Positions 19,954-40,444 of a stretch of DNA of 64,000 nucleotides are shown here, in pieces. The DNA is taken from positions 204,154 through 268,153 of the forward strand of contig JBAZTA010000002.1 of the NCBI GenBank assembly GCA_041662125.1, given 5' to 3'. The notes beneath the pieces are model-generated. The model had not been told where the DNA came from, ran no database searches, and was given only the letters and a program-made list of their open reading frames with translations. Each line of letters begins with the position of its first letter. Positions within the stretch are counted from its first letter, which is position 1. The DNA comes from Candidatus Omnitrophota bacterium. GTDB lineage: Bacteria; Omnitrophota; Gorgyraeia; Gygaellales; Profunditerraquicolaceae. The position numbers and the translations under genes are program-made.

Positions 19954-19954
19954 T

Positions 19955-22646: not shown

Positions 22647-23087
22647 ATGAGAAATGTAATTGTATTCATGCTATGTCTATTTTTTATTTCGATGGTTAAA
22701 GTTGGCCTAACCGAAGAGCCGCGGAGCGTTAAGCCAATTGATGAATCCAAAGCTTTAGGCCCGCTTGGGAAGAGTTTTTATAATGAAATAGCTAAATTAG
22801 ATAAAACGGAACAAAAAATTATTTATTCTGCTTATATTTCAGGTTTTTTAGATGGTGTAATATCTCAAAAAGCACAGGAAATTAATGCAAAAGAATTAAG
22901 TTTTGTTAATAATTTTCTTGAGATTTGTAAGGGGATGACAGAAGAACAGCTCGCCGATATGATGTTAGAATATTATGAAAAAAATCCTGGTGATAGAGAT
23001 CAAATGCCTATGCTTGTTCTAACCGTAGTAATTCCTAGATTAAAAAAAGGATTATCTCCTTATGGGCCACAAGAATTGAGGAATTAA
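22647..23087 (+). CDS. hypothetical secreted protein (AT-rich)
   Basis: Signal peptide; flanked on both sides by palindrome clusters; SD ggaggtaaga. Confidence 0.5.
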   Translation: MRNVIVFMLCLFFISMVKVGLTEEPRSVKPIDESKALGPLGKSFYNEIAKLDKTEQKIIYSAYISGFLDGVISQKAQEINAKELSFVNNFLEICKGMTEEQLADMMLEYYEKNPGDRDQMPMLVLTVVIPRLKKGLSPYGPQELRN

Positions 23088-23096
23088 CGCAATTTT

Positions 23097-23146
23097 AAGA
23101 CCGGGTCTTATCAATGATAAAGCACTACCTGTCAAGACCCGGTCTT
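23097..23146. repeat. two copies of palindrome AAGACC(S)GGTCTT
   Basis: 23097-23109, 23134-23146; near-identical to unit at 22500-22592. Confidence 0.8.
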
Positions 23147-23180
23147 ATGAACTATGTGATTATTTTACCTGGGAGGTTCT

Positions 23181-23795
23181 ATGTCAACTTGTCCATATAG
23201 TAGCGGCCCTGCGTCATATGTACCGTTTCTTGTGCCTGTCGTGTGGTTTGGGGTTTTTTTCTCGATCATGTATTTTATGAATAAGAAAAATAAAGAAGCC
23301 CTTAAGAATCTGTCTAGTTGTTTAAAGGGAAGCCTTTCTAAATCATTTTTCTTGAACGCCTTTGAAGGGCAGTATGAAGGTTTGCCGTTACAAATTTCTC
23401 TGACCCCCGGTAGTAAAAATACCCCTCCGTATTTAAGGATAAGCTTAACAAAAGAATCGACGTTTAAATTAACTATCTATAAAGAATCGGGCTTGAGTAT
23501 CCTTGGAGAGAAACTCGGGTTAGTCCACGAAGTTAAAGTCAATGATGAGGCTTTTGATAAAGAGTTTTTGATCTTTTCCAATAATGCAAACCGCGCTATG
23601 AGTTATCTTGCCGGCAGTATAGAGAAGAGAAACGCGATACGGGAATTATTCAACCATGGTTTTAATGCTGTCATTATTGACGGTAAAAGAATTTTAATTC
23701 AGAAGCCACGCTATAATGTAGATTATGACCTTCAGCCGCTCCAGGTAACTTCTGCGTTGCAAAAACTCGGTATTTTAGTGAAGGGGATATTCTAA
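23181..23795 (+). CDS. hypothetical membrane protein (AT-rich)
   Basis: N-terminal TM helix VPFLVPVVWFGVFFSIMYF; SD gggagg. Confidence 0.5.
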   Translation: MSTCPYSSGPASYVPFLVPVVWFGVFFSIMYFMNKKNKEALKNLSSCLKGSLSKSFFLNAFEGQYEGLPLQISLTPGSKNTPPYLRISLTKESTFKLTIYKESGLSILGEKLGLVHEVKVNDEAFDKEFLIFSNNANRAMSYLAGSIEKRNAIRELFNHGFNAVIIDGKRILIQKPRYNVDYDLQPLQVTSALQKLGILVKGIF

Positions 23796-23843
23796 GACCG
23801 GGTCTTATCAATAATAAAGTACGACCGTTCAAGACCCGGTCTT
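23794..23843. repeat. two copies of palindrome AAGACC(S)GGTCTT
   Basis: 23794-23806, 23831-23843; unit identical to 22500-22559. Confidence 0.8.
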
Positions 23844-23893
23844 GTTGCTAACTTTCCCTTGTGGATACGGGTAGCCTAAGGTATAATTATTTT

Positions 23894-24745
23894 ATGAAAT
23901 TAGGCGTCCATGTTTCAACTGCAGGGCATATTTACGAAGCAGTCAATCGCGCGGCGGCTTTAGGTTGTAACACCATGCAGATATTTTCGCGTGATCCCTT
24001 GCAGTGGCGTAAGTCGCATCTGAAAAAAGAAGATATTGATGAATTCCTGAAATTACGCTCCCAGCATCAGATTGCGCCTGTTTTCGCGCATGTGTCGTAT
24101 TTGATCAATTTAGCTTCCCCGTATAATATCTTATATCGCAGCTCAGTTAAAGCCTATATCGAAGATATCAAGGAAGCTCAGAGCCTGGGTATCGAGTATA
24201 TCGTAACCCACATGGGAAGCCATAAAGAAAGCGGCGAAGAAAAAGGGTTAAAACGGATAACCGCTGCCATTAACCGGATCTTAGATAAAACCAAAGATCA
24301 TTCGGTTTCGATCCTGTTGGAGAATACCGCAGGTGCTGGCTCCTGGCTGGGGTATACATTCGAACATCAACGCCAGATCATTGATAACGTTGAGAATAAG
24401 TCGCGGATAGGGGTTTGTTTTGATACCTGTCATGGTTTTGCGGCAGGATATGATTTGTCGACTTTAGCCGGGTATAAGGAAACTATTTCGCAATTAGACA
24501 ATATTGTCGGGATCGATAAACTTAAGCTTATCCATCTCAACGATTCTAAAGATAAATTGTCCAGCCACCGGGACCGGCATGAGCATATCGGTAAAGGAGA
24601 GATCGGCTTGGAAGGGTTTCGCCGTCTGGTGAATGACCCACGGCTGAAAAATGTTTCTTTTATCCTGGAAACTCCCAAAGATGCGGATGATGCTGACCGT
24701 AAAAATCTGGATACAGTCAGGAAATTAAGAAAGGGTAAAGATTAA
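23894..24745 (+). CDS. nfo: endonuclease IV (AP endonuclease family 2)
   Basis: MKLGVHVS...; conserved His/Asp/Glu metal ligands of Nfo TIM-barrel (HxxY, ENTAG, DTCH, HLNDS). Confidence 0.85.
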   Translation: MKLGVHVSTAGHIYEAVNRAAALGCNTMQIFSRDPLQWRKSHLKKEDIDEFLKLRSQHQIAPVFAHVSYLINLASPYNILYRSSVKAYIEDIKEAQSLGIEYIVTHMGSHKESGEEKGLKRITAAINRILDKTKDHSVSILLENTAGAGSWLGYTFEHQRQIIDNVENKSRIGVCFDTCHGFAAGYDLSTLAGYKETISQLDNIVGIDKLKLIHLNDSKDKLSSHRDRHEHIGKGEIGLEGFRRLVNDPRLKNVSFILETPKDADDADRKNLDTVRKLRKGKD

Positions 24746-28443: not shown

Positions 28444-28604
28444 ATGCGAGCAGCAGATACCGATACGGTAATATTCTATCAGCTTTAAGGCCGCCAGAAG
28501 GGTTGGTTCCTGGTAAGATCTTTTTTGAGGGTGGAACTTATTTTTTTGAAATAATACTTGATATGTTAAAGGTTGTATGATATATTGTTGATGATGCAAG
28601 TATA

Positions 28605-29093
28605 TTGGAAGGGAAAGCTATAATGCTTAAAAGGTTTGGTATTAATTCGGGAAGCGAAAATTATCGTGAAACCGCTGTGTACGGCCTGGCGTACGCGTAT
28701 TCCCTTATTGAGAATAAAATAGCCGATTATCTTAGGCCTTTTGGCCTGAGCGTAGCTAAATTTAACGCTTTGCTGGTGGTAAAGCATATCGGGAAAGAAG
28801 AGGGACTCAGCCAGGGAGAGCTCGGCAGGCGTTTGATCGTTACTCCCTCAAACATAACCCGGCTCTTGGATCGGTTGTCTCAAGACGGATTTATAGAGCG
28901 GCTTGCGAGAAAAGGTGACCGCAGGGTGCATTTGATCAGGATCACCCGGGAAGGGTCCGATATCCTTGATAAGGCATGGCCGGGGTATTATAAAAAAGTG
29001 CACACGATAGCGAACCTTATGGATGAAAAGAAGCTCCGGCAGGTTTCTCAAGGGATCGTGGATTGGTGCGGTAAGTTAGATAATACAGTATGA
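28605..29093 (+). CDS. MarR-family transcriptional regulator
   Basis: Winged-helix pattern LSxxxFxxLxxxxxxxxxxxxxLxxxLxxxxxxxTRLLDRLxxxGxIER...D.R; overlaps next gene start (ATGA). Confidence 0.8.
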   Translation: MEGKAIMLKRFGINSGSENYRETAVYGLAYAYSLIENKIADYLRPFGLSVAKFNALLVVKHIGKEEGLSQGELGRRLIVTPSNITRLLDRLSQDGFIERLARKGDRRVHLIRITREGSDILDKAWPGYYKKVHTIANLMDEKKLRQVSQGIVDWCGKLDNTV

Positions 29094-30379
29094 AGATATT
29101 ATTTGTTATGCCACGGTTGGGGCTCTATAAAAAAGGAAGAGGGTTTAGAAAGAATCTGACCTATGCGCCATTGACATTAACAACATTGGCTTCATTGGTC
29201 CCCCAAGGACTGAACGCAGAGATGCGGATAATAGACGAAGGCGTGGAGGAATGCGATTATGGTTTGTTTTCCCCTGATATTGTTTGTTTGACCGGGATAA
29301 CCGGGCATATTTTAAGGTCTTATGAAATAGCCGATAGTTTTAGAAAAAGAGGGGTAACGGTGATAATGGGCGGTGTGCACGCTACCCTTATGCCGCATGA
29401 GGCCAAGCAGCATGCCGATTCAGTTGTCGTGGGCCATGCCTACAAAACTTTTCCGCAAGCATTAATGGATTGGAAGAGCGGGAGATTGCAGGAATATTAT
29501 AAAGATGACGATCCTTGTTTTGAGGCAATCCCTGCGCCGCGCAGGGACTTGCTTTACGCAAAGGGGTATATTTCGACCAATACGACGCAGGCAGTGTTCG
29601 GATGCCCCTGTAATTGCGAGTTTTGCGTTATAAGCGCAACAAAGTCAGGGTATCACCACAGGCCGATCCCCGAAGTCATTGAAGAAATAAAGAACATGAG
29701 ATCTCAATTGATCTTTTTTTTAGACCCTTCCCCTATCGAAGATAAAGAGTATAGTAAAGAATTATACAGGCAGATGATACCGTTAAAGATAAACTGGATG
29801 GGGTTATCGACATCCAAGATAATCGATGACGATGAATTATTGTCTTTGGCTTATGAAAGCGGCTGCGCGGGTTTATTGATCGGTTTTGAATCTGTATCGG
29901 AAAAAAGCCTCAAGAAAATGAATAAGAATTTCAACAGTATTGAAAAACATTTCCGGCTCGTTAAAGAACTTCATAAGAGAAATATATCTATTATGGGGTG
30001 CTTCGTTTTCGGTTCAGATGAAGACGAAAAGGCTGTGTTTGAAGAAACCGTAAGGTTTTGCCTGCAGGCCGGCATTGACCTGCCGCGTTTTACTGTTTAT
30101 ACCCCGTTTCCCGCCACGGCCCTTTTTAGCCGATTAAAAGAAGAAGGCAGGATACTGACAACGAATTGGTCGAAATATAATTGCCAGAATGTCGTGTTCC
30201 AGCCCAAGAAGATGGCTGTGCATGAGCTTGAGGCCGGGCTTGCATATGCCTGGAAAGAATGCTACAAAGTAAAAAATATTATGAGAAGGTTGTTAAATGC
30301 CAGGACCAGGTTATTCTATATGATCGTGGCTAACCTGGGGTACCGGTTCTATAGTAAAGAACATGAAAAATATAAATGA
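29090..30379 (+). CDS. class B radical SAM enzyme with N-terminal B12-binding domain
   Basis: N-terminal Rossmann-like B12 domain then CPCNCEFC (CX3CX2C), GFESVS, TVYTPFPAT motifs. Confidence 0.8.
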   Translation: MKILFVMPRLGLYKKGRGFRKNLTYAPLTLTTLASLVPQGLNAEMRIIDEGVEECDYGLFSPDIVCLTGITGHILRSYEIADSFRKRGVTVIMGGVHATLMPHEAKQHADSVVVGHAYKTFPQALMDWKSGRLQEYYKDDDPCFEAIPAPRRDLLYAKGYISTNTTQAVFGCPCNCEFCVISATKSGYHHRPIPEVIEEIKNMRSQLIFFLDPSPIEDKEYSKELYRQMIPLKINWMGLSTSKIIDDDELLSLAYESGCAGLLIGFESVSEKSLKKMNKNFNSIEKHFRLVKELHKRNISIMGCFVFGSDEDEKAVFEETVRFCLQAGIDLPRFTVYTPFPATALFSRLKEEGRILTTNWSKYNCQNVVFQPKKMAVHELEAGLAYAWKECYKVKNIMRRLLNARTRLFYMIVANLGYRFYSKEHEKYK

Positions 30380-30433
30380 GCCGGGGGGAATGTCTGTTTT
30401 TAAGAGGTTGAAACAATCGCCAAGGAGCTGTAT

Positions 30434-31765
30434 TTGAAGATAACCCTTATCATGCCCGCAGTCGGCAGAAAGCAGCATGAGCCTTATATTGATTCCTGGA
30501 AGATGGAACCGCTGGCTTTGGCCACCCTTGCCGGCTTGACTCCGCCTGATATCGCCATCGATTTTTTCGACGATAGAATAGAGGCGATTGATTATGGCCG
30601 TGAATCTGACCTGGTGGCGATAAACGTCGAGACGTATACCGCCCGGAGGGCGTATGAGATCTCAAAGCGGTTCCGTCAACGTGGCCGGCACGTTGTTTTA
30701 GGAGGTTTTCATCCTACTCTTTTCCCGGATGAAGCGATTGAATTCGCTGATGCCGTCGTTATCGGAGAGGCAGAGGATATATGGGCTCATGTCATCGAAG
30801 ACGCGAAAAAAAGGGGACTGAAAAAATATTATAGATCCCCGGGCCGGCCTGTGCTGAAGGGAGTGAATCCGAGGAGGGAAATATTCGCGAATAAGCGCTA
30901 TTTACCCGTTTCTTTGGTTGAATCCGGCAGGGGATGTGCGTTCTCCTGCGATTTCTGTTCTGTCAGCAGATTTTTTAATCAATCCTACGTTGCCCGCCCG
31001 ATCCAGGATATTGTCCGGGAGATAGAGTCATTAGGGAAAAAGTTAATTTTTTTAGTCGATGACAATTTCGGTGTGGACATGAAACGGGCAAAGGAACTTT
31101 GCCAGGCGCTTATCCCTCTGAAGATTACCTGGTTCAGCCAGGGGAGTATCAACATGTCCGAAGATGAAGAGCTGCTTGCGGTAATGAAAAAAAGCGGTTG
31201 CCTGGGGCTGCTGATCGGTCTTGAATCGCTTAATAAAGATAATCTTTCGCAGATGAATAAATCATGGAACCGCGGCCCTGCGTATTACACTGAAGCGTTA
31301 CAGAGGTTCCGGCACCATGGTTTAGTGATTTACGCTACCTTCGTTTTTGGTTACGACCATGATGATGCGCGTTCATTTGACCTTACGCTTGATTTCGCGG
31401 TTAAAAACAAATTTTTCCTCGCGGCGTTTAACCATGTCGTCCCGTTTCCCGGGACGCCGTTATATGGCCATCTCAAAAAAGAAGGCCGATTACTGTATGA
31501 CCATTGGTGGCTGGAGCCTGCGTATAGGTTCGGGGATGTCGCTTTTAAGCCTCTGCAGATCAGCCCTGAAGAATTATCGCGCGGTTGTATGGATGCGCGC
31601 AGAAAATTCTATCAATTCAGTTCTTTGTTACGCAGGTCTGTTGATTTTAAAGCAAATTGCAGTGACCTGTATCGCGCGCTGTATTTTTTTTCGATAAACC
31701 TACTTTCACAAAAAGAGGTAGTTAAAAGGCAGGGGCTGCCCCTGGGAAATGAAGGGGTTTGTTGA
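30434..31765 (+). CDS. class B radical SAM enzyme with N-terminal B12-binding domain (paralog)
   Basis: CAFSCDFC CX3CX2C, same architecture as 29090..30379; TTG start with AAGGAG SD (alt ATG 30452). Confidence 0.8.
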   Translation: MKITLIMPAVGRKQHEPYIDSWKMEPLALATLAGLTPPDIAIDFFDDRIEAIDYGRESDLVAINVETYTARRAYEISKRFRQRGRHVVLGGFHPTLFPDEAIEFADAVVIGEAEDIWAHVIEDAKKRGLKKYYRSPGRPVLKGVNPRREIFANKRYLPVSLVESGRGCAFSCDFCSVSRFFNQSYVARPIQDIVREIESLGKKLIFLVDDNFGVDMKRAKELCQALIPLKITWFSQGSINMSEDEELLAVMKKSGCLGLLIGLESLNKDNLSQMNKSWNRGPAYYTEALQRFRHHGLVIYATFVFGYDHDDARSFDLTLDFAVKNKFFLAAFNHVVPFPGTPLYGHLKKEGRLLYDHWWLEPAYRFGDVAFKPLQISPEELSRGCMDARRKFYQFSSLLRRSVDFKANCSDLYRALYFFSINLLSQKEVVKRQGLPLGNEGVC

Positions 31766-32883
31766 ACACTATGCGCAGATTCAGCTTTAAAATAGCCGAA
31801 GAACCTGATGACCAGGCGATCCGGAAAGTTATTGAGAATACCCCCATGGAGGGAAAGATCGGTATTGCTTTTAAACGTGAGCCGAGTTATTTTGCTGCCG
31901 CCACGGTTGGGAATGAATTCCACCAGACTATAATAGCCACGGAAGAAAGCTCAGGCGACATTGTGGCAGTGGGGAGCCGTTCCATAAAATCAGCTTACAT
32001 AAACGGGGAGGTCAGTCCCGTCGGATATTTAAGCAGCCTGAGAATAAAAGATAATTATCGCAACAATCTCTTGTTGGCCCGCGGTTATGAGTACCTTAAT
32101 AAATTGCATCAGGATAAAAAGGCGCCGCTGTATATCACGTCTATAGTCTCCGATAATGTCCCCGCGCTCGGCCTGTTGACAAGTGAAAGAGCGGGGCTGC
32201 CCCGCTACCGTGACCTGGGCTCGTACTGTACAACCGCGATCGGGCTGTCCCGGAGGAACCATGATTTAAGGGGCGGGCTGACGATCATCAGAGGCTCGCA
32301 TAAGAACATAGATGCTATTGTTGCGTGTTTGAACAGGAATGGAAAAAATAAACAATTCTATCCTTATTATACAAAGGAACTTTTCCTCTCCGGAAACGGC
32401 ATGCTCAGGGATTTTGTTCTCGATAATTTTTATGCGGCGGTCAAGGATGATGCCATTGTCGGCGTGGCAGCGAAATGGGACCAGGGGAACTTTAAGCAGA
32501 CGCTCGTTACGGGATACCGGGGGTCGTTGCGTTTTATTAAAGCTTTTTATAACCTGGGTGCTGCGCTGGCTGGTTTGCCTTTGCTTCCGCGGCCGAATAC
32601 GCGCTTAAAATTGTTGTACGCGGGATTTATCGCCGTCGATAATAATGATGAGGGGATTTTCCGGGCATTATTGCGCGCGCTGTATAACGGCGCAGCGGCA
32701 TCCGGTTACGATTACCTTCTTGTCGGGCTGTGCCAAAACGATCCCTTGTTAAAGCCTATAAGGGAAGGGTACTGTTTTATTAAGTATGAGAGCAGGGTTT
32801 TCGCGGTCGTTTGGGATGACGGCTTGGATCTTTACAACAAGTTGGACGGGCGGATCCCGTATTTAGAATTAGCGACATTGTAG
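31759..32883 (+). CDS. hypothetical protein, possibly GNAT-fold acyltransferase-like
   Basis: 374 aa; no sharp motif; weak resemblance to N-acyltransferase (OlsB/FemAB-like) N-terminus; overlaps previous gene by 7 nt. Confidence 0.35.
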   Translation: MLNTMRRFSFKIAEEPDDQAIRKVIENTPMEGKIGIAFKREPSYFAAATVGNEFHQTIIATEESSGDIVAVGSRSIKSAYINGEVSPVGYLSSLRIKDNYRNNLLLARGYEYLNKLHQDKKAPLYITSIVSDNVPALGLLTSERAGLPRYRDLGSYCTTAIGLSRRNHDLRGGLTIIRGSHKNIDAIVACLNRNGKNKQFYPYYTKELFLSGNGMLRDFVLDNFYAAVKDDAIVGVAAKWDQGNFKQTLVTGYRGSLRFIKAFYNLGAALAGLPLLPRPNTRLKLLYAGFIAVDNNDEGIFRALLRALYNGAAASGYDYLLVGLCQNDPLLKPIREGYCFIKYESRVFAVVWDDGLDLYNKLDGRIPYLELATL

Positions 32884-32905
32884 CTTTGTTTTAAGGAGGA
32901 AGAGA

Positions 32906-33634
32906 TTGTTTCGGCTTACCGGTGGTATTATTGAGGCCTCAGAGCTTACGGTTGAACAAATAAACGAAATGTTCAGCCTTTTTTGCCTGTATTTCAATCA
33001 CGTTGATCGTGAGCAATTTGATAGGGACCTGCAAGAGAAGAACTGGGTAATAATCTTACGGGATGCCTCCTGCGGAGGCATCAAGGGATTTTCAACTCAG
33101 ATGGTCATGGATCGTCTTGTCGATGGAGTTACCGTCAAAGCGGTCTTTTCCGGCGATACGATAATTCATAAGGATTTCTGGGGTGAACCCGCGCTTGCGA
33201 AGGTCTGGCTGAATTTTGTTTGTTCTTTGGCGAAACGCTATGACGGGACTAAGCTGTATTGGTTCCTGGTAGCTATGGGCTATAAGACGTATCGTTTTCT
33301 CCCCGTGTATTTCAACGAATTTTATCCCTGTTACGATAGAAAAACTCCTCAATTCGAAAAAAATGTTTTAGACAGCCTTGCCGCTTTCAAATATCCTTTC
33401 GAATACAATAAAGAGGCGGGTATAATCCATCATGCGTCGGAGAAAGAGACTTTAAAGGCAGGAGTCGCCGACGTTACCCCAACGCGTATGCATAACCCGC
33501 ATATTGATTTTTTTGTCAAGAAGAATCCCGGGTATTCGTTTGGCGATGAATTGGCATGCCTGGCCCTTATTAACGAAGAGAATTTAAAACCGGTTGCTAA
33601 CCGTGTTATGGGGGCATATGGTAATTCATTGTGA
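32906..33634 (+). CDS. hypothetical protein, possibly GNAT-fold acyltransferase-like
   Basis: 242 aa; uncharacterised; clustered with radical SAM genes. Confidence 0.35.
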   Translation: MFRLTGGIIEASELTVEQINEMFSLFCLYFNHVDREQFDRDLQEKNWVIILRDASCGGIKGFSTQMVMDRLVDGVTVKAVFSGDTIIHKDFWGEPALAKVWLNFVCSLAKRYDGTKLYWFLVAMGYKTYRFLPVYFNEFYPCYDRKTPQFEKNVLDSLAAFKYPFEYNKEAGIIHHASEKETLKAGVADVTPTRMHNPHIDFFVKKNPGYSFGDELACLALINEENLKPVANRVMGAYGNSL

Positions 33635-34799
33635 GAGGGATATTCAATTATTAAACCGTTTAGTCGCTTTGGGCGCGAAGAAAATTTGTTCTGTTAATAA
33701 TAAGCGGGCTCAAGACTTGATCCGGCGGGAGATGGAGGAACGGATCCCGGGGAGGTATGCGTATTGGCAAGAAGAGTTCCCGGTAAAGGTATGTACTTTA
33801 AACCAGGCAAAGATATATTTCAACAATAAAGATTGTAATGCTTATCTTCTTGATTATACCGGCGCGCAAGGCAAGGGCGTAACGGGGGAACTGGTTTATC
33901 TTGGAAATGCGACAGAGAGAGATTTTAGGAATAACGATGTGCGGGGCAAGGTCGTTGCCTGTAAGTATGGGATAGCCAACCACCGGATCTTACAGGTTGA
34001 ACGCGCTCAAAGATACAAAGCAGCGGGTATGATCATTATTTCAGGGCATCGTGATTTGTTCCAGATCGGCACAGGGTGCCCTGAGTTTAAAGATGCAGTA
34101 GGGATCCCCGCGCTTTCCATACCTAAGAAAGATTGGCTGGATTTATCAAGGTCAACCGGAAAGCAGATAACGCTGGAGTATCGGCAAAGGATAGTTACCG
34201 GGGTAGCAAAAAATCTTATCTTTGACCTTTCACAAGAGGATTCAAAGGAGTATATAGTCATCGGCGCGCATTTTGATACGTGGACTTCCGGGGCCCAGGA
34301 TAATAGTATCGGAGTAGTGATGCTTGTTGCTTTAGCTGAGTATCTCGCCGGGAGAGGGTATAAGAAAAACATACGTATCATATTCTTCGATGCTGAAGAA
34401 GTGGGAATGGCGGGGTCAAAATGGCATACGAGCCACGCTGACGTGAAAAACTACTGCGCATATATTAATTTAGAGATGCCCGTGCCTGGTAAGGATGCAA
34501 ATATCAGGGCGGTTTTATTTTCCCGTGAGCCGTTTATTCGGAATGCGATCCCTCTGGCACAAGCAGCGCGCCATTGGTTCTTGCCAATACCGTTAAATCT
34601 GTTTTACCGGATAAGTAAAAGCTTGTTTCCTTCTGATGTGGATAGTTTCTTTCAGAAGGGAATTCCCTGCATAACCACATATTGCGGTACTGCTTACTAT
34701 CATACTTCTGAAGATACCGTGGATAAGCTGGACCTGCGGATGTACCCGGTGGTCCTTTCGATGATAGAAAAAATTGTGAGAAAGCTGGAAAGCCGTTAA
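33594..34799 (+). CDS. M28-family metallopeptidase with PA domain
   Basis: HFDTW...D...DAEEVGMAGS...H zinc-ligand pattern of M28 aminopeptidases; PA-like insert; true start may be internal (overlaps upstream gene by 41 nt). Confidence 0.7.
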   Translation: MLTVLWGHMVIHCERDIQLLNRLVALGAKKICSVNNKRAQDLIRREMEERIPGRYAYWQEEFPVKVCTLNQAKIYFNNKDCNAYLLDYTGAQGKGVTGELVYLGNATERDFRNNDVRGKVVACKYGIANHRILQVERAQRYKAAGMIIISGHRDLFQIGTGCPEFKDAVGIPALSIPKKDWLDLSRSTGKQITLEYRQRIVTGVAKNLIFDLSQEDSKEYIVIGAHFDTWTSGAQDNSIGVVMLVALAEYLAGRGYKKNIRIIFFDAEEVGMAGSKWHTSHADVKNYCAYINLEMPVPGKDANIRAVLFSREPFIRNAIPLAQAARHWFLPIPLNLFYRISKSLFPSDVDSFFQKGIPCITTYCGTAYYHTSEDTVDKLDLRMYPVVLSMIEKIVRKLESR

Positions 34800-36119
34800 A
34801 TGATCATTAACAAAACAACCTCTTATTGCTGTGAATGCTCAAAGAGCCATGCTGCGACTATAGAGCACAATGGCGCGTGTATTAATTTTCTTGTTGATTG
34901 CCCGAAAGGAATAAAGTCTTCCCGGATCTCCGCTGATGCCGGTATTTTCCTGGGGATCAGGAGGAAATATCCCCGGGATCTTTCTCTCCCTGCGGTTCAT
35001 AAAGGCAAGAAATGGTCCCATCTCATCGAAATAACCGATGACTGTAATTTTAAGTGCCCGGTTTGTTACGCTGATGCCGGCAGCGGGCCTGTAAAAACCT
35101 TCTTGACCCAGGAAGCTGTTTTAGAGAGGGCGGCTGCCGTAAGAAAGAGCGGCGGTAAGATCGTTACGCTTACCGGCGGTGAACCGACGTTGCATTCCGA
35201 TTTACCCGTACTAGTCAGGAAAATCACCGATAGGGGATTAAAGGTTGAGATCGCAACGAACGGCATGAAAATCGCGCAGGATCCCGGCTATGCGCGGAGC
35301 CTTAAAGAAAGCGGGTTACAGCGGGCGTGGTTACAGTTAGATACGCTTAATGAAGATACTCACCTGAAAATGCGGGGAAATGATTTTGTGGAACAGAAAA
35401 GAAAGGCTGCAGGTAATATTATTGCCTGCGGATTGCGTTTAGGGATCATTGTTACCGTGACCAGCTTGAATATCAATGATATCGATAGTATCCTGGAATA
35501 CAGCCTTACTCTGGGCGCTCAACTGGATTTTATTGTTTTTCAGGTAGCTGCTCCCGCAGGCAGATACCAGCTTTTGGCGGATACGATCACCGATAGAGAA
35601 GCGGTCATAAAAAGGCTGATGACTTCCCGTGTGCTGCATACTGTTCGATCGATAGACAACTTTTGGCCCCTGCCGGCATTCAGGCCATGGCAGCTGGAAG
35701 TACACCCGGATTGCTCCGCTATCTTGTTTCTCCTGGTGGAAGGTACAAGCGCGCAACCCATCGATGATCTTATAAATATGCCGGCATTTTACCGGCGTTT
35801 GAACGCTAATACTATGCCTCCAAGTTTCTTGAGCAGGAATATCGTCCCCATTTTTTATGCGTTGAGAGAAACCAGCCTGAAGAATTTGTTAAAGCTTATG
35901 CAGTATCTGTATGGTTTTATCACCGGCCGCGGAAAAAAAAGAATGATGGTCATATCTATCGACAGTTTCCTGGGCGCTGAATATCAGGATGAGCAAAGGC
36001 TCGCCCGCTGCGCCAACTCTTTTGTTACGCCTTTCGGGTTGCTGTCCCCTTGTATATACAACTATCCGGATAAAAGAAGAGCGGGCTCGCGTAAAAACTT
36101 GGAGGAAAGATGCGGTTAG
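34800..36119 (+). CDS. radical SAM protein with Cys-rich N-terminal extension
   Basis: CNFKCPVC CX3CX2C, GGEPTLH glycine-rich SAM motif; N-terminal YCCECSKSH...GAC...DCPKG. Confidence 0.75.
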   Translation: MIINKTTSYCCECSKSHAATIEHNGACINFLVDCPKGIKSSRISADAGIFLGIRRKYPRDLSLPAVHKGKKWSHLIEITDDCNFKCPVCYADAGSGPVKTFLTQEAVLERAAAVRKSGGKIVTLTGGEPTLHSDLPVLVRKITDRGLKVEIATNGMKIAQDPGYARSLKESGLQRAWLQLDTLNEDTHLKMRGNDFVEQKRKAAGNIIACGLRLGIIVTVTSLNINDIDSILEYSLTLGAQLDFIVFQVAAPAGRYQLLADTITDREAVIKRLMTSRVLHTVRSIDNFWPLPAFRPWQLEVHPDCSAILFLLVEGTSAQPIDDLINMPAFYRRLNANTMPPSFLSRNIVPIFYALRETSLKNLLKLMQYLYGFITGRGKKRMMVISIDSFLGAEYQDEQRLARCANSFVTPFGLLSPCIYNYPDKRRAGSRKNLEERCG

Positions 36120-37201
36120 TTAATAATTTGCGGTATGCTTTTGTCAGCGCAGCGTTAACTGTTCCCGCGTTTAAGCAGCTGAAAGAAACGGCAGTGAAGC
36201 TGCTCTTAGGGCACAATAAAATCATCGGCTGGGAAAATTTTTTGCCGGTCCGCAGTTTAATTGTGCCGGCTGAATATAGCCGGCCTTTTATCACCTCCGC
36301 CGCACGCCTGTATAATTCAGGGCGGTATGACCTGCATTACCCGGGTTTGGCTACTCTTTCTCTTACTTCTCGGTGTGATTGTGATTGTTTACATTGTACC
36401 GCTTATGGGCAGGGGGGCAATGAGCTTTCAACAGGGCAATGGGTCGATATCATCCGTAAATCTGCCGATTTGGGGGTTTTTAGCTTTGGTTTTACCGGAG
36501 GAGAGCCGCTTTTAAGGGAGGACCTTGCGGAAATCATCCGGGCAGTGGATAAAAAGAGGTCTATTTGTCTTATATATACCAACGGCTCGAAATTAAAGCA
36601 ACGGGCGAAAGAATTGTATAAAGCAGGTTTAAGGCGGGTCCTGGTAAGCATTGATTTTCCGGATGAGCAATCGCATGATAGGCACCGTAAGCATGGCGGT
36701 TTGATGAATAAGGCGCTCGCGGGATTGGAAGAAGCGCGGCGGTTAGGCATGCTGGTAGGTTTCTCGACGTTTGTTTCTCCTGAGAGGTTTTATTCCGGGA
36801 CTGTTGAAAAGATTTTCCAGCTGGGGGTTGAGAAAAAAGTTAACGAGATAGCGGTGTTTGATGCGCTGCCTTCCGGACGCCTGGAAAATCAAACTGAACT
36901 TAAGCATGCTGCGCCGCAGTATACCGCAGAACTTCGCACGTTCATAGAATCCTGGTGGATGAAGAGAAATGCCCCCGGGGTGTGGTGGTACGGCCATTTT
37001 CGGTCTTTCCAGGCTTGTGGATGTCCCGGCGGGACATCGATGTTCAATATCTCCGCGAGTGGGGAATTCCGTCCGTGCGACTTTTGTAAAGTCAGTGTCG
37101 GCTCGGTAACGAAAGACAGCCTTGAGGCTCTTTGGATAAGGCTGAACAACCTGGCGAAAGAACAACGCAGTAGAGGAAATGAATGCTGGCTTTTACGGTA
37201 A
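36110..37201 (+). CDS. radical SAM protein with C-terminal SPASM/twitch-like Cys cluster
   Basis: CDCLHC core (CX3CX2C), GGEPLL motif; C-terminal CGCPGG...C..C auxiliary-cluster pattern. Confidence 0.75.
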   Translation: MRLVNNLRYAFVSAALTVPAFKQLKETAVKLLLGHNKIIGWENFLPVRSLIVPAEYSRPFITSAARLYNSGRYDLHYPGLATLSLTSRCDCDCLHCTAYGQGGNELSTGQWVDIIRKSADLGVFSFGFTGGEPLLREDLAEIIRAVDKKRSICLIYTNGSKLKQRAKELYKAGLRRVLVSIDFPDEQSHDRHRKHGGLMNKALAGLEEARRLGMLVGFSTFVSPERFYSGTVEKIFQLGVEKKVNEIAVFDALPSGRLENQTELKHAAPQYTAELRTFIESWWMKRNAPGVWWYGHFRSFQACGCPGGTSMFNISASGEFRPCDFCKVSVGSVTKDSLEALWIRLNNLAKEQRSRGNECWLLR

Positions 37202-37222
37202 GAAGGGACCGGTAAAGAAAAT

Positions 37223-39010
37223 ATGGGAAACATGATCAGAAAAGTTCAATTATTCTTCGCGAATTTCTTTTGGCTGTTATTATCTGTCCGGAGAAGTTAT
37301 TGTTTTCGCGCTTCAACGTTTGATGTCGAGAAGGCGCAGAAAAAAGTCTTATTGCGCATCATAAAGCGAAATAGGGGGAGCGTCTTTGGAAAAGAGCATG
37401 GATTTGCCTCTCTAGGAGGGATCGCTGATTACCAGGCAAGGGTCGGGGTTCGCACGTATGACTTATATAAAGGATATATCGATTGTATTGCTGAAGGCAG
37501 GCAGGAAATATTAACATCGGACCCGGTATTGCTGTTGGAGCCTTCCAGCGGTTCAACCGCAGGCCCCAAATACATCCCCTATAACCTGAGGCTGTATGAA
37601 GAGTTTAAAAACGGGTTGTCTCCATGGATCTTCGACCTGTTGAGCAAAAGAAAACGGCTCCTTTTAGGCAGTGCTTACTGGTCTATTTCCCCGATAACGA
37701 AAGCAGATAATAAGGGCTCCACGATTCCCGTCGGTTTCGGGGACGACGCCGCTTATTTCGGAAAGCTCCCGGGGCGCCTGTTAAATACTATTCTTTCTGT
37801 GCCATTCTTGGTAAGTCGGATTGAAGATGGAGAGTCCTATAAATATGTTACCCTGTATTTTCTTTTGCGGGATAGAAATCTCGCTTTTATTTCCGTTTGG
37901 AACCCTTCGTTCTTAATGCTTTTGTTGGAACCTCTTGAAAAATGGTCTCTTCAGCTGATAAAAGACATAGAACGCGGGACGGTAACGCTTCCCGAAAATA
38001 GTAATGCAGGCCTCAAGGAGGCGCTTATTAAGAAATGTTATAGAGACAGGAAACGGGCAGAGGAACTCAGGCGGATCCTTGCCCATGATTATGCGCAAGA
38101 AACAGGCATTACCGGTACGAAAACCATGTGCGAAAGGATTTGGCCGAATTTAAGCTTGATCAGTTGTTGGGGCGATAGCCATGCTGCCCTGCACGTTAAT
38201 GAAATAAGGCGGTTGTTCCCCAATATAGAAATCCAACCCAAGGGGTTGCTTGCTACCGAAGGCATTGTTTCCTTTCCCCTGATAGGGGAAAGCGGGGCTG
38301 CGTTAAGTATTCGTTCGCATTTTTTTGAGTTCATAGAGCTTAAGGATAGATATGAGAATAGTACTGATGCGGTTTATACAAAATTAGCGCACCAACTGGA
38401 AAAAGGAAAGCTTTATTCTATCGTAATGACTACGGGAGGAGGTTTGTACCGGTATAGGCTGCAAGACATCATACAAGTTGTCGGATACAAAAATCAGTGC
38501 CCCTTAGCCAGATTCATAAGTAAAGAGTCTAACATTTCAGATGTAGCTGGAGAAAAACTTAATGAATTTCACGTCGCGGCGATCTTAAAGGAGGCCTTTA
38601 ATAAATATTCTCTTGAGCCGGTTTTTTTCTTGTTGGCACCTGAAAGGGTCGTAAAAAAACAGGCGTATTTTTATGCATTGTTCCTTGAGTTAAAGGAAAA
38701 TAATCCCGGGTATGATCATTGTCTTTTTTCATTAGCGCAGGACCTGGAAAAAAGATTGGAAGAGAATTATCACTACGCTCATTGCATAAATTTAGGGCAA
38801 CTTTTATCAGTGAAGCTCTTTGTAGTAAACTCTCAGATCCCGGCAGCGCATATATATGTTAATACCTGCCGAGAAAAAGGGCAAAAATTGGGCAATATTA
38901 AACCTTCCGTGCTCAGTTCCCGGATTGGCTGGTCTGAATATTTCGAAGGAAGGTTTATCGGAGAATCGGATGTGCAAGGTGTGTATACCTGTGTTGGCCA
39001 AGGCTTGTAG
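37223..39010 (+). CDS. GH3-family adenylating enzyme (acyl-acid amido synthetase-like)
   Basis: N-terminal AQKKVLLRIIKRNRGSVFGKEHGF and SSGSTAGPKYIP (SSGTTxGxPK-like adenylation motif) typical of GH3 family; 595 aa. Confidence 0.7.
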   Translation: MGNMIRKVQLFFANFFWLLLSVRRSYCFRASTFDVEKAQKKVLLRIIKRNRGSVFGKEHGFASLGGIADYQARVGVRTYDLYKGYIDCIAEGRQEILTSDPVLLLEPSSGSTAGPKYIPYNLRLYEEFKNGLSPWIFDLLSKRKRLLLGSAYWSISPITKADNKGSTIPVGFGDDAAYFGKLPGRLLNTILSVPFLVSRIEDGESYKYVTLYFLLRDRNLAFISVWNPSFLMLLLEPLEKWSLQLIKDIERGTVTLPENSNAGLKEALIKKCYRDRKRAEELRRILAHDYAQETGITGTKTMCERIWPNLSLISCWGDSHAALHVNEIRRLFPNIEIQPKGLLATEGIVSFPLIGESGAALSIRSHFFEFIELKDRYENSTDAVYTKLAHQLEKGKLYSIVMTTGGGLYRYRLQDIIQVVGYKNQCPLARFISKESNISDVAGEKLNEFHVAAILKEAFNKYSLEPVFFLLAPERVVKKQAYFYALFLELKENNPGYDHCLFSLAQDLEKRLEENYHYAHCINLGQLLSVKLFVVNSQIPAAHIYVNTCREKGQKLGNIKPSVLSSRIGWSEYFEGRFIGESDVQGVYTCVGQGL

Positions 39011-39899
39011 GCAATCATTCCTCGTGAAGCGTTTAGCCCTCGTTTTTATGTTTGTTGCCATGAATTCGAGCGGCCTTTATGCTGAGAGCTTAAAAGATCT
39101 GCATGAAAAGCCCATATCTAGTTTAGAGGAACTAAGAAAATACGCCGATTCATTGCCCTCGCAAGGAGAGCGTCATTATGCGCTTGGTTTGGGGTATTTA
39201 ACGTATCATCGCGAACAGGAGGCCTGGGGAGAATTCGAGAAGATTTTGAGATTAGACCCCGGGAATGGTAATGCCTTATGGGGTAAGGCGGAGATTTTAC
39301 GGAGAAATTCCGAATACAAAAAATCTCTGGAAATCCTGGATGAGGTGTTAAAGAAAAACCCGGAGCATGTCCCGTCGTTAATCACGAAATCTTATACAGA
39401 GCTTCTGTTAGGTGCCCTGCATCAATCGATCAAAACAGCCGCAGTTGTTGAAAGGTTGCAGGGCGCGGGGAAAGCAGTTGATAAACCGAATTTGGCGCGC
39501 GCCTACCTCATTATCGCTACGGCTCAAATTCAAATTGCCCGTAAGAGCTTTTTTTTGGGGAAATTGCAGGCGCTTTCGGTTAAATGGTATATTATGAAAG
39601 CTGTTGAAATAAATCCGGAAGCCGCGGAGGTCAGGTTCGCCTTAGGGAATTTTTACCTTTTTGCTCCCGGATTCTGGGGTGGCAATGTCGATGCGGCTAT
39701 CAGTGAGTTCAATAAAACATTACATAAAGATCCGCAATTTATGGATGCGTATGTGCGGTTAGTTCAGGCTTACCGTAAAAAAAATGATGTAACACGGTCT
39801 CAATTCTATTTAGAGAAGATCAAAGAATTAGATCCTCGTAATAAACTCGCCAAGGAATTAGGTCTCTCGTCTGTTTTTAATAATGATAGCTTACAATGA
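38970..39899 (+). CDS. TPR-repeat protein, probably secreted
   Basis: TPR units (ALGLGYLTYHREQEAWGEFEKILRLDP...); start uncertain (38970 or 39048), ORF extends to 38856 overlapping GH3 gene. Confidence 0.6.
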   Translation: MCKVCIPVLAKACRQSFLVKRLALVFMFVAMNSSGLYAESLKDLHEKPISSLEELRKYADSLPSQGERHYALGLGYLTYHREQEAWGEFEKILRLDPGNGNALWGKAEILRRNSEYKKSLEILDEVLKKNPEHVPSLITKSYTELLLGALHQSIKTAAVVERLQGAGKAVDKPNLARAYLIIATAQIQIARKSFFLGKLQALSVKWYIMKAVEINPEAAEVRFALGNFYLFAPGFWGGNVDAAISEFNKTLHKDPQFMDAYVRLVQAYRKKNDVTRSQFYLEKIKELDPRNKLAKELGLSSVFNNDSLQ

Positions 39900-39962: not shown

Positions 39963-40060
39963 AAGACCGGGACTTAGGAGGCAGGACTATGATGTGTCAA
40001 GTCCCGGTCTTGAAAGGGACTGGTAGTAAGATCCAAAACCAGGTCTTGCTGAAGAAAGCC
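39963..40060. repeat. ~100-bp composite repeat (copy 1) containing inverted AAGACCGGGACTT / AAGTCCCGGTCTT arms
   Basis: Near-identical to 40304-40400 (2 mismatches); arms are mutual reverse complements. Confidence 0.75.
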
Positions 40061-40303
40061 TACCTAATTTATATTCCTTTCGTTTTAAACTAAAAATTCC
40101 TAAATTATTTTTGTTAGATTTAGCATTCTGAAACGTCTATTGTTAGTGAGGGCATCTCTTGTAACTTTATTGTGAGTCCGCCTGCCTGCCGGCAGGCAGG
40201 AACTATCCCTGCGGATGTATGTAAAATTTCGTGTAAAGACCTGGTCTTTTCTGAAATGGGTAACGGCAATCCAAGACCAGGTCTTGTTGGCGATAGAAGT
40301 AAT

Positions 40304-40400
40304 AAGACCGGGACTTAGGAGGCAGGACTATGATATGTCAAGTCCCGGTCTTGAAAAGGACTGGTAGTAAGATCCAAAACCAGGTCTTGCTGAAGAAAGC
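40304..40400. repeat. ~100-bp composite repeat (copy 2); degenerate palindrome copies also at 40239-40251, 40273-40289
   Basis: Direct duplicate of 39963-40060; flanks GCCTGCCTGCCGGCAGGCAGG hairpin at 40180-40201. Confidence 0.75.
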
Positions 40401-40444
40401 CTTCCTGCCGTCGGCAGTCCGACCACCGCAAACCGAATTTAACT

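What the first reader, a model, noticed from the sequence alone, without database searches (positions are those of the whole stretch)
28605..39899. MarR-headed 11-kb cluster with four radical SAM enzymes, GH3 adenylase, M28 peptidase and two unknown acyltransferase-like proteins - candidate novel biosynthetic/tailoring system
The contiguous co-directional genes are: MarR regulator; two paralogous B12-binding (class B) radical SAM enzymes, a class known for C-methylation at unactivated carbons in RiPPs and for lipid C-methylation such as hopanoid HpnP/HpnR; two uncharacterised proteins (374 and 242 aa) with at most faint GNAT-like character; an M28/PA-domain aminopeptidase (leader-peptidase-like); a radical SAM protein with an extra Cys-rich N-terminus; a SPASM/twitch-type radical SAM (typical RiPP maturase); a GH3-family ATP-dependent amido synthetase, a family best known from plant hormone conjugation; and a TPR protein. 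I know of no described pathway that combines these. No precursor-peptide ORF of 60 aa or more is visible, so the substrate could be a short peptide below the ORF cutoff, a lipid, or a small molecule.
Basis: partly seen in the sequence, partly recalled or inferred. Interest (0 to 1): 0.85.

Follow-up and report, generated by a model that had tools for sequence, protein, structure and literature searches.

The report
Conserved GH3–GNAT–radical SAM biosynthetic cassette
This 11-kb operon in an uncultured Omnitrophota bacterium is one version of a widespread but unstudied gene set, also present in Acinetobacter, that probably builds and decorates an amide-linked, lipid-like molecule nobody has yet identified.

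Summary

The cluster is not a chance juxtaposition. Its core is tandem GNAT + GNAT + GH3 amido synthetase, usually preceded by two paralogous B12-radical SAM genes, and it recurs in more than 12 phyla. Of 51 non-Moraxellaceae loci of at least 8 kb, GH3 is present in 41, the small GNAT in 40 and a B12-rSAM in 36. The small GNAT is fused to GH3 in some genomes.

About 45 Acinetobacter species carry the bare triad inside an EmrAB/TolC-type efflux operon. MarR, M28, the Tes-family rSAM, its SPASM partner and the TPR protein are lineage-specific add-ons.

Other loci replace or supplement the B12-rSAMs with fatty-acid-desaturase-family, Rieske and AurF-like oxygenases, PAP2 and small membrane proteins. 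No conserved short ORF was found, so a RiPP is unlikely.

Best reading (about 0.5): an acyl-amide, aminolipid-like amphiphile pathway with radical tailoring of the hydrophobic part. No profile places it in a characterised pathway and no literature describes it. The product is unknown.

The parts
28558..28586 (+). Best sigma-70-like promoter match (TTGATA-17-TATATT with an extended TG), just upstream of MarR. It is a possible operon promoter.
   Evidence: The match is weak evidence: the number of promoter-like sites in the region is not above the shuffled expectation.
28605..29093 (+). MarR-family winged-helix regulator. Its stop overlaps the start of the next gene by 4 nt. It is a lineage-specific regulator of the cassette.
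   Evidence: Pfam MarR 1.8e-12. No NCBIfam equivalog reaches its cut-off. A 52%-identical MarR heads a related cassette in L074 and L075, but it is absent from the closest relative L007.
29090..30379 (+). B12a: class-B (cobalamin-binding) radical SAM enzyme with a DUF4070 C-terminus.
   Evidence: Pfam B12-binding, Radical_SAM and DUF4070. Best NCBIfam matches are BchE (92 bits, cut-off 481) and HpnJ (77, cut-off 578). It forms an orthologous group with a B12b partner upstream of the tandem GNAT in most anaerobe-type loci. It is 85% identical to the L074 protein.
30434..31765 (+). B12b: a paralogous class-B radical SAM enzyme, 33% identical to B12a.
   Evidence: Best NCBIfam matches are PhpK-family (96 bits, cut-off 600) and BchE (97, cut-off 481). 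Best PDB sequence matches are 9ccb (an unnamed rSAM), AprD4 and TokK.
31759..32883 (+). Tandem-GNAT-fold protein ("tGNAT"; probable start 31771), a core component. It is a predicted acyl or aminoacyl transferase whose donor is unknown.
32906..33634 (+). Single-GNAT-fold protein with a C-terminal extension ("GNAT242"), a core component and functional partner of GH3.
33594..34799 (+). Cytoplasmic M28 metallopeptidase with a PA domain (start possibly 33618). It is an accessory of the Omnitrophota type only.
   Evidence: Pfam Peptidase_M28 2.5e-28 and PA 2.5e-8. I saw no signal peptide by reading the sequence. Beyond the window it is present only in L001 and L007.
34800..36119 (+). Tes/HMPTM-family radical SAM enzyme. 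It has an N-terminal Cys/His metal ribbon and three conserved C-terminal Cys residues for an auxiliary cluster. It is an accessory and a candidate C-C bond-forming enzyme.
   Evidence: NCBIfam TrsS 145 bits (cut-off 490) and Tes 106 bits (cut-off 450). The best PDB hit is the tetraether synthase 7TOL, 1.5e-25, spanning the core plus the C-terminal Cys region. Conserved residues: C10, C13, H17, C34; C82, C86, C89; C305, C404, C418. It always lies next to a SPASM rSAM.
36110..37201 (+). SPASM/twitch radical SAM enzyme, the obligate neighbour of the Tes-family enzyme. It is an accessory.
   Evidence: Pfam Radical_SAM 3.6e-19 and SPASM at cut-off. Best NCBIfam matches are AhbD, MoaA and NirJ2, all far below cut-off. 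The best PDB hit is BlsE.
37223..39010 (+). GH3-family ATP-dependent acyl-acid amido synthetase, a core component.
   Evidence: Pfam GH3 7e-46, GH3_M 3.3e-19 and GH3_C. Nucleotide-binding motif I (PSSGSTAGPK) and motif III (GGLYRYRLQD) are intact in the alignment to rice GH3.8 (motif definitions from PMC12493201). The OlsH model gives only 56 bits (cut-off 620). It is 28% identical to A. baylyi ACIAD3676 (E 2e-52).
38856..39899 (+). TPR protein with a hydrophobic N-terminal segment. The real start is probably downstream of 38856. It is lineage-specific and shared only with L007.
   Evidence: Pfam TPR families. A homologue occupies the same position in L007 and is absent elsewhere.

Best explanation
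The region is an Omnitrophota variant of a widespread, uncharacterised, modular biosynthetic cassette.

Shown:
- The invariant core is a GH3 adenylating amido synthetase, a single-domain GNAT that is sometimes fused to it, and a tandem GNAT.
- In anaerobe-type lineages the core is preceded by a pair of paralogous cobalamin-dependent radical SAM enzymes.

Inferred mechanism:
1. GH3 uses ATP to adenylate a hydrophobic carboxylic acid, probably a fatty acid as OlsH does, and joins it to an amine such as an amino acid to form an N-acyl amide.
2. The two GNAT-fold enzymes add further acyl or aminoacyl groups.
3. The B12-rSAM pair functionalises unactivated carbons of the hydrophobic part, by methylation or ring/bond formation. 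In aerobes, desaturase-family, Rieske and AurF-like oxygenases do the equivalent job.
4. In this window's variant, the Tes-family rSAM and its SPASM partner add a C-C linkage, M28 trims an amide, and MarR regulates the operon.

The product is most likely a membrane-associated or exported aminolipid-like amphiphile. Its structure is unknown.
For: Co-conservation:
- The triad is syntenic in Omnitrophota, Nitrospirota, Planctomycetota, Verrucomicrobiota, Chloroflexota, Desulfobacterota, Rokubacteria/Methylomirabilota, Gemmatimonadota, Acidobacteriota, Cyanobacteria and about 45 Acinetobacter species.
- Of 51 non-Moraxellaceae loci of at least 8 kb, 41 have GH3, 40 have GNAT242 and 36 have a B12-rSAM.
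- GNAT242-GH3 gene fusions exist.

Enzyme competence:
- GH3 nucleotide-binding motifs are intact.
- Both unknowns have high-confidence GNAT folds.
- Cys ligands of the Tes-family enzyme are conserved.

Lipid-like substrate:
- The only characterised bacterial GH3, OlsH, ligates fatty acids to ornithine (PMC12493201).
- Neighbouring families recur across triad loci: FA_desaturase in 25, Rieske oxygenase in 26, PAP2 in 10, SnoaL-like proteins with a signal peptide and TM anchor in 15, small TM proteins in 7, hexapeptide transferases in 7. L073 also has a cardiolipin-synthase-like PLDc_2 gene.
- The closest solved structure to the accessory rSAM is the tetraether lipid synthase.
- GNAT242 resembles the acyl-ACP-using enzymes LasI and FeeM.
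- In Acinetobacter the triad is embedded in an EmrA/EmrB/TolC-type tripartite efflux operon.
Against: - No product, substrate or donor has been observed. All lipid evidence is guilt by association.
- There is no acyl carrier protein, fatty-acid synthase or glycerolipid gene in the window cluster.
- Similarity of GH3 to OlsH is weak (56 bits, cut-off 620). Plant GH3s use aromatic and jasmonate acids, so the acid need not be a fatty acid.
- FA_desaturase-family and Rieske enzymes also act on non-lipid hydrophobic compounds.
- Neither GNAT shows the canonical Q/RxxGxG/A acetyl-CoA loop when I read the sequence, so the donor could be something else, for example acyl-ACP or aminoacyl-tRNA.
- The GH3 N-termini are amphipathic but are not transmembrane segments.
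Confidence: 0.5

Rival explanations
1. A secreted or cytoplasmic non-lipid small molecule. Examples would be a carboxylate-amine siderophore, an antibiotic, a dipeptide-type osmolyte or a mycothiol-like thiol. GH3 would act as the amide ligase, the GNATs as N-acyl caps, and the rSAMs as C-methylases of the scaffold.
For: - Acinetobacter links the triad to an efflux pump.
- A PLP-dependent (PALP) enzyme is inserted in L007 and L018.
- B12b's best profile match is the PhpK-type small-molecule methylases.
Against: - No N-hydroxylase, sugar, inositol or amino-acid-supply genes recur with the triad.
- The recurrent neighbours are membrane enzymes (FA_desaturase, PAP2) and membrane-anchored proteins.
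- All profile matches are far below their cut-offs.
Confidence: 0.22
2. A RiPP or other peptide-modifying cluster. The B12-rSAMs would C-methylate and the SPASM rSAM would cross-link a ribosomal peptide. M28 would remove the leader, and GH3 and the GNATs would cap the termini.
For: - Class-B rSAMs, SPASM rSAMs and a peptidase occur together, as in known RiPP pathways.
- B12b gives 80 bits to the RiPP enzyme ApyD.
Against: - No ORF of 18-90 aa is conserved across cluster loci apart from near-identical contig pairs.
- Nothing plausible lies in the window's intergenic gaps.
- M28 is present in only 3 loci, and the SPASM/Tes pair in few.
- The core persists in Acinetobacter with no rSAM or peptidase.
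- All RiPP-maturase equivalog scores are far below cut-off.
Confidence: 0.1
3. A detoxification and conjugation system. Hydrophobic or aromatic acids would be oxidised or modified, conjugated to amino acids by GH3 and the GNATs, and exported, under a MarR-type sensor.
For: - Plant GH3s inactivate acids by amino-acid conjugation (established knowledge).
- A MarR regulator is present here and in L074 and L075.
- Acinetobacter has an EmrAB/TolC-type pump in the same operon.
- Oxygenases sit next to the triad in aerobes.
Against: - Dedicated pairs of cobalamin rSAMs, PAP2, hexapeptide transferases and exported anchored proteins fit biosynthesis better than catabolism.
- The triad is core-genome and syntenic across the genus Acinetobacter, which suggests an endogenous substrate.
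Confidence: 0.1
4. No functional unit: unrelated genes that merely lie next to each other on a strongly strand-biased chromosome.
For: Nearly all genes in the window are co-directional. Promoter and terminator scans are uninformative.
Against: - Synteny of the core holds across phyla at 24-50% identity.
- Gene fusions exist.
- Coding sequences overlap or abut.
- The flanking genes differ in the closest relative L007.
Confidence: 0.02

Closest known systems
OlsH/OlsI ornithine-lipid pathway of Singulisphaera acidiphila (PMC12493201)
   Same: A bacterial GH3-family enzyme serves as the first, ATP-dependent amide-forming step of an amphiphile pathway. Nucleotide-binding motifs I and III are conserved. 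The OlsH authors note that bacterial GH3 homologues outside planctomycetes may make other N-acyl amino acids.
   Different: - The window GH3 scores 56 bits against the OlsH equivalog (cut-off 620).
- There is no OlsI alpha/beta-hydrolase and no OlsG methyltransferase.
- The partners here are two GNAT-fold proteins and radical SAM enzymes.
- Acinetobacter makes ornithine lipid by other genes.
Tetraether/membrane-spanning lipid synthases Tes (GDGT-MAS, PDB 7TOL), Mss and Gms
   Same: The 439-aa rSAM has 7TOL as its best solved relative (1.5e-25). It shares the N-terminal metal ribbon, the CX3CX2C core and conserved C-terminal Cys residues for an auxiliary cluster. In Tes that architecture supports Csp3-Csp3 coupling of lipid tails.
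   Different: - It scores 106 bits against a cut-off of 450, so it is not a Tes orthologue.
- It is about 90 residues shorter.
- It is always paired with a SPASM rSAM.
- It is bacterial, with no isoprenoid ether-lipid genes nearby.
- It scores slightly better (145 bits) against TrsS, a family of unknown function.
Class-B (cobalamin) radical SAM lipid and cofactor tailoring enzymes (BchE, HpnJ, HpnP, HpnR, GrsA/B, Gmm, PhpK)
   Same: B12-binding Rossmann domain plus rSAM core. These enzymes act on unactivated carbons of hydrophobic substrates. There is an anaerobic/aerobic replacement pattern, reminiscent of BchE versus the diiron enzyme AcsF.
   Different: No subfamily cut-off is approached. 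The enzymes occur as a conserved heterologous pair (B12a plus B12b) next to GNAT genes. Their chemistry is unknown.
Ligase plus tandem-GNAT logic of mycothiol synthesis (MshC/MshD), and N-acyl amino acid synthases (FeeM, OlsB-type)
   Same: An ATP-dependent amide ligase works with a tandem GNAT that caps an amine. GNAT242 resembles the acyl-ACP-dependent enzymes FeeM and LasI in fold.
   Different: The ligase family differs (GH3, not an aaRS-like enzyme). There are no glycosyltransferase or deacetylase genes. Sequence identity to these GNATs is about 10%.
B12-rSAM/SPASM RiPP pathways (polytheonamide, bottromycin, ApyD-type)
   Same: Multiple class-B rSAMs occur with a SPASM rSAM and a metallopeptidase.
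   Different: No precursor peptide gene was found. The core is conserved without the peptidase or rSAMs. GH3 is not a known RiPP enzyme.

Membership tests
GH3 acyl-acid amido synthetase family | GH3 N, middle and C domains above the Pfam gathering scores | tested here: met
   157.3, 69.2 and 23.9 bits, each against a cut-off of 23.6
GH3 acyl-acid amido synthetase family | Nucleotide-binding motifs I (SSGTxxG.K) and III (GLYRYRxGD) | tested here: met
   PSSGSTAGPK and GGLYRYRLQD align to the motifs of rice GH3.8. Motif definitions are from PMC12493201.
OlsH/OlsI ornithine-lipid pathway | GH3 above the NCBIfam OlsH equivalog cut-off (620 bits) | tested here: not met
   55.8 bits. The A. baylyi homologue gives no hit.
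OlsH/OlsI ornithine-lipid pathway | Adjacent OlsI alpha/beta-hydrolase O-acyltransferase | tested here: not met
   No alpha/beta-hydrolase among the ten genes or among the recurrent neighbour families.
GNAT superfamily | GNAT fold | tested here: met
GNAT superfamily | Canonical acyl-CoA pyrophosphate loop Q/RxxGxG/A after strand beta4 | tested here: inconclusive
   Reading the alignments A1 and A2, the equivalent loops are YRxxxLLARGY and DTIIxxxxWG, with no Gly-x-Gly. The donor therefore cannot be assigned.
Class-B (B12-binding) radical SAM enzymes | N-terminal B12-binding domain plus CX3CX2C radical SAM core | tested here: met
   B12a: 35.8 bits against 32.1. B12b: 31.7 against 32.1, marginal, but 33% identical to B12a over its full length.
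Characterised class-B subfamilies (BchE, HpnJ, HpnR, PhpK, ladderane-associated, ApyD) | Score at or above the equivalog cut-off | tested here: not met
   Best scores are 92-97 bits against cut-offs of 360-750.
Tetraether lipid synthase Tes | Score at or above the NCBIfam cut-off (450 bits) | tested here: not met
   106.3 bits
Tetraether lipid synthase Tes | Architecture: N-terminal metal ribbon, rSAM core, C-terminal Cys-ligated auxiliary cluster | tested here: met
   Alignment to 7TOL covers the core and the C-terminal Cys region. C10, C13, H17, C34, C82, C86, C89, C305, C404 and C418 are conserved in 35 homologues.
Tetraether lipid synthase Tes | Tail-to-tail coupling of membrane lipids | not testable with these tools
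   Needs lipid analysis or an enzyme assay.
RiPP biosynthetic gene cluster | Precursor peptide gene in or next to the cluster | tested here: not met
   No ORF of 18-90 aa is conserved across loci. Nothing was found in the window's gaps. An unlinked precursor cannot be excluded.
RiPP biosynthetic gene cluster | A maturase matching a known RiPP rSAM equivalog | tested here: not met
   All such models score far below cut-off, for example PqqE 76 against 381 and AlbA 48 against 850.
Anti-phage defence systems (PADLOC) | Match to a defence-system protein model | tested here: not met
   Only generic rSAM-core matches to pVip models were found. There were no matches for the GH3, the two GNATs, M28 or the TPR protein.

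The most novel reading that the evidence does not exclude
The cassette makes a hitherto unknown class of amide-linked membrane lipids found from Acinetobacter to Omnitrophota. Their hydrophobic chains would be C-methylated or cyclised by cobalamin radical SAM enzymes in anaerobes and by desaturase, Rieske and diiron oxygenases in aerobes. In the Omnitrophota variant they would be coupled tail-to-tail by a Tes-family enzyme into a bacterial membrane-spanning aminolipid.
Probability: 0.2. Interest if true: 0.85.

Novelty: new variant of a known kind. Interest (0 to 1): 0.62.

Why it matters
- **An unassigned gene set in many phyla.** If the reading is right, a three-gene core present in more than a dozen phyla encodes an unrecognised amphiphile pathway. 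That core is in the core genome of Acinetobacter, including A. baumannii-group species.
- **A second role for bacterial GH3.** It would give the bacterial GH3 family a second biochemical role after OlsH.
- **New enzyme families defined.** It would define two new GNAT families and a conserved pair of cobalamin radical SAM enzymes with unknown chemistry.
- **A check on lipid-biomarker screens.** Bacterial Tes/Mss-like genes are now counted as brGDGT potential in metagenome screens (PMC11868695). This context shows that at least one such clade sits in a different pathway.
- **A tractable host.** A. baylyi ADP1 carries the minimal version, so the question can be tested directly by experiment.

Tried and rejected
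- **Locus search with broad alignments.** A 6-sequence alignment (A4) worked.
- **Fold search.** The afdb50 library was unavailable.
- **PDB sequence-profile searches of the two unknowns.** They gave only sub-threshold AAC(6') hits, or nothing. Fold comparison was needed.
- **Literature.** I searched for OlsH/GH3 clusters, TrsS, Acinetobacter GH3, the ACIAD3674-3678 locus tags, and GH3 + rSAM + Rieske + desaturase. Nothing describes this cassette. The brGDGT paper PMC13274423 mentions no such genes.
- **PADLOC.** No defence-system match.
- **Small-ORF clustering for a precursor peptide.** Negative.
- **The small TM protein.** This roughly 147-aa protein follows GH3 in other loci. I searched for it in the window and did not find it.
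- **Membrane anchor on GH3.** The N-termini are amphipathic only.
- **A GH3-tGNAT fusion in L011.** The apparent fusion is an over-long ORF in a high-GC contig, and the two genes are in different frames.
- **Hopanoid, BchE-type, ladderane, TrsS and Tes assignments.** Rejected on profile scores.
Full report
**Observation.**
Pfam confirms the following:
- MarR at 28605-29093.
- Two B12-binding radical SAM proteins at 29090-30379 and 30434-31765. They are 33% identical paralogues.
- PA + M28 peptidase at 33594-34799.
- A radical SAM protein at 34800-36119.
- A radical SAM protein with a SPASM domain at 36110-37201.
- A three-domain GH3 protein at 37223-39010.
- A TPR protein at 38856-39899.

The ORFs at 31759-32883 and 32906-33634 match no Pfam or NCBIfam family. 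Genes overlap or are separated by 55 nt or less.

Almost all genes in the 64-kb window are on the + strand, so co-directionality is not evidence by itself. The best exact match identifies the source as a Candidatus Omnitrophota MAG with a 543-kb contig.

**The two unknowns.**
I built alignments of homologues (A1 with 46 sequences, A2 with 56). AlphaFold2 then gave very confident models, with pLDDT 95.7 and 95.9.

A profile-profile comparison aligns the small GNAT with the N-terminal half of the tandem GNAT (probability 87%). Neither shows a canonical acetyl-CoA loop when I read the sequence, so the acyl donor is open.

**The radical SAM enzymes and GH3.**
No gene reaches any curated equivalog threshold:

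| Gene | Best NCBIfam matches (bits / cut-off) |
|---|---|
| B12a, B12b | BchE 92-97 / 481; PhpK 96 / 600; HpnJ 77 / 578 |
| 439-aa rSAM | TrsS 145 / 490; Tes 106 / 450 |
| SPASM rSAM | AhbD 109 / 500 |
| GH3 | OlsH 56 / 620 |

The best solved relative of the 439-aa rSAM is the archaeal tetraether synthase 7TOL (1.5e-25). The alignment extends into the C-terminal Cys region. In 35 homologues the residues C10, C13, H17, C34, the CX3CX2C motif and C305, C404, C418 are conserved. This is a Tes-like architecture with an auxiliary cluster.

GH3 retains nucleotide-binding motifs I and III (motif definitions in PMC12493201).

**Comparative genomics.**
Contigs carrying homologues of the Tes-family rSAM at 38-49% identity show the same gene set:
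- L001: four B12-rSAMs, tandem GNAT, GNAT, M28, two rSAMs, GH3.
- L002 and L003: the same set without M28.

I scanned one genome per species and JGI metagenomes with a tandem-GNAT alignment. I then scored all ORFs with the ten window proteins. The result separates a core from accessories. Among 51 non-Moraxellaceae loci of at least 8 kb:

| Component | Loci with it |
|---|---|
| GH3 | 41 |
| Small GNAT | 40 |
| Any B12-rSAM (usually a B12a + B12b pair just upstream) | 36 |
| Strong Tes-family hit | 5 |
| M28 | 2 |
| MarR | 2 |
| TPR | 1 |

Phyla represented include Omnitrophota, Nitrospirota, Planctomycetota, Verrucomicrobiota, Chloroflexota, Desulfobacterota, Rokubacteria/Methylomirabilota, Gemmatimonadota, Acidobacteriota (Paludibaculum) and Cyanobacteria (Nodularia sphaerocarpa).

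Further points:
- The small GNAT is fused to the N-terminus of GH3 in two representative proteins.
- The Tes-family and SPASM rSAMs form a separate two-gene module. It can occur with the triad (L073) or without it (L071, L072).
- Flanking genes in the window are unrelated housekeeping genes: LeuRS and TraB/GumN upstream, ComEA and ComEC downstream. They differ from those in the closest relative L007. The cassette is therefore self-contained.

**Acinetobacter.**
About 45 Acinetobacter species carry distant but significant homologues of all three core genes. For GH3 the identity is 28% with E 2e-52. The gene order is fixed: EmrA-like adaptor, EmrB-like DHA2 transporter, GNAT, GH3, TolC-like channel, tandem GNAT. 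In A. baylyi ADP1 these include ACIAD3674-3677. All are annotated as hypothetical or "GH3 family". None of the rSAMs or oxygenases is present there.

**What the neighbours say.**
I clustered the other ORFs lying within 4 kb of the core and annotated them with Pfam. The recurrent companions are:

| Companion family | Loci |
|---|---|
| Rieske/VanA_C oxygenases | 26 |
| FA_desaturase-family membrane enzymes | 25 |
| SnoaL/DUF4440 proteins with signal peptide and C-terminal TM anchor | 15 |
| FG-GAP/ASPIC proteins of about 950 aa | 11 |
| PAP2 lipid-phosphatase-family proteins | 10 |
| AurF-like diiron oxygenases | 10 |
| A second SPASM rSAM | 10 |
| Hexapeptide acyltransferases | 7 |
| A roughly 147-aa multi-TM protein | 7 |

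L073 also has a cardiolipin-synthase-like PLDc_2 gene.

Aerobe-type loci read FG-GAP, Rieske, unk221 (an unannotated protein of about 221 aa), GNAT, GH3, tGNAT, AurF, desaturase. Anaerobe-type loci read B12a, B12b, tGNAT, GNAT, GH3. Mixed forms exist. I interpret this as O2-dependent and O2-independent solutions to the same task, namely functionalising unactivated carbons of a hydrophobic substrate.

**RiPP test.**
No ORF of 18-90 aa in or around the clusters is conserved beyond near-identical contig pairs. The window's own gaps hold nothing plausible. The peptidase is rare, and the core survives without rSAMs. A ribosomal-peptide substrate is therefore unlikely, though an unlinked precursor cannot be excluded.

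**Proposed mechanism.**
Shown:
- A conserved, self-contained cassette.
- A catalytically intact GH3.
- Two GNAT-fold proteins, one of them a fusion partner of GH3.
- Two distinct class-B rSAM orthologue groups.
- A Tes-architecture rSAM.

Inferred:
1. GH3 adenylates a hydrophobic acid and forms an amide with an amine. The only characterised bacterial GH3, OlsH, makes N-acyl-ornithine.
2. The GNATs add further acyl or aminoacyl groups.
3. The B12-rSAMs methylate or otherwise modify the chain.
4. In the Omnitrophota variant, the Tes-family/SPASM pair adds a C-C link and M28 processes an amide.
5. MarR regulates. It overlaps B12a by 4 nt here, and a 52%-identical MarR heads the cassette in L074 and L075.

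I put about 0.9 on "conserved biosynthetic cassette with this core" and about 0.5 on "lipid-like acyl-amide product". Rivals are a non-lipid secreted small molecule (0.22), a RiPP (0.1), a conjugation/detoxification system (0.1) and chance (0.02).

**Comparison with known systems and novelty.**
The cassette works most like the OlsH type of aminolipid synthesis combined with radical SAM lipid tailoring (Tes, Gmm, Hpn). It fails the membership tests for each of those families. Full-text searches found no description of the combination or of the Acinetobacter genes. I rate it a new variant of a known kind: a biosynthetic gene cluster built from known superfamilies but with an undescribed core and an unknown product.

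**Limits.**
- Everything about the product is inference from fold, family and neighbourhood.
- ORF calling in high-GC loci produced antisense artefacts, which I excluded by eye.
- Locus retrieval depended on two short peptide patterns, so the sampled loci are biased toward relatives that keep them.

Noticed in passing
window 39963-40065 and 40304-40406: A 103-nt direct repeat (97% identical, spacing 341 nt) lies in the gap between the TPR gene and the ComEA-like gene. There are only two copies in the window. The + strand folds into two strong hairpins (MFE -44.6 kcal/mol, z -3.6). There is no Rfam match.
   Followed up: partly
window 1-64000: There is extreme strand bias, with nearly all ORFs of at least 120 aa on the + strand. 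GC skew is positive in every 2-kb bin and cumulative skew rises monotonically. This suggests the whole window lies on one replichore's leading strand.
   Followed up: no
window 18000-24000: A lower-GC stretch (0.36-0.39, against 0.42-0.47 elsewhere) contains tRNA-Leu(CAA) on the - strand (18766-18851) and tRNA-Ala(GGC) (22154-22229). It may be an island or an RNA-gene region.
   Followed up: no
window 29090-30379 vs L074 1353-2642: B12a is 85% identical to its counterpart in a metagenome cassette whose tandem GNAT (49%) and MarR (52%) are much more diverged. The closest relative by the other genes (L007) has a much less similar first B12-rSAM (462 bits, against 867 bits for L074). This points to mosaic evolution or very strong constraint on B12a.
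   Followed up: partly
L027-L070 (e.g. L050 3363-11101): Genus-wide Acinetobacter operon: EmrA-like, EmrB-like, GNAT, GH3, TolC-like, tandem GNAT (including ACIAD3674-3677 in A. baylyi ADP1). It is followed by a DsbC gene and lies near mnmE. All genes are annotated hypothetical, and I found no literature.
   Followed up: partly
L071 8847-11281; L072 8868-11353: The SPASM rSAM + Tes-family rSAM pair also occurs as a stand-alone two-gene module without the GH3/GNAT triad. In L071 it is near a PKS-like AT-ACP-KS protein. In an Anaeromyxobacter contig (L072) it is next to a B12-rSAM, a rhodanese and an SDR.
   Followed up: partly
L007 11887-12864; L074 535-1356: Variant-specific insertions. The closest Omnitrophota relative has a PLP-dependent (PALP) enzyme between the small GNAT and M28. 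L074 and L075 have a secreted DUF3108-like protein between MarR and B12a.
   Followed up: partly
L002 7072-8911; L003 16429-17952: GH3 appears split into two or three ORFs in two ENA long contigs. These are probably frameshift errors or pseudogenes rather than genuine short GH3_C proteins.
   Followed up: no
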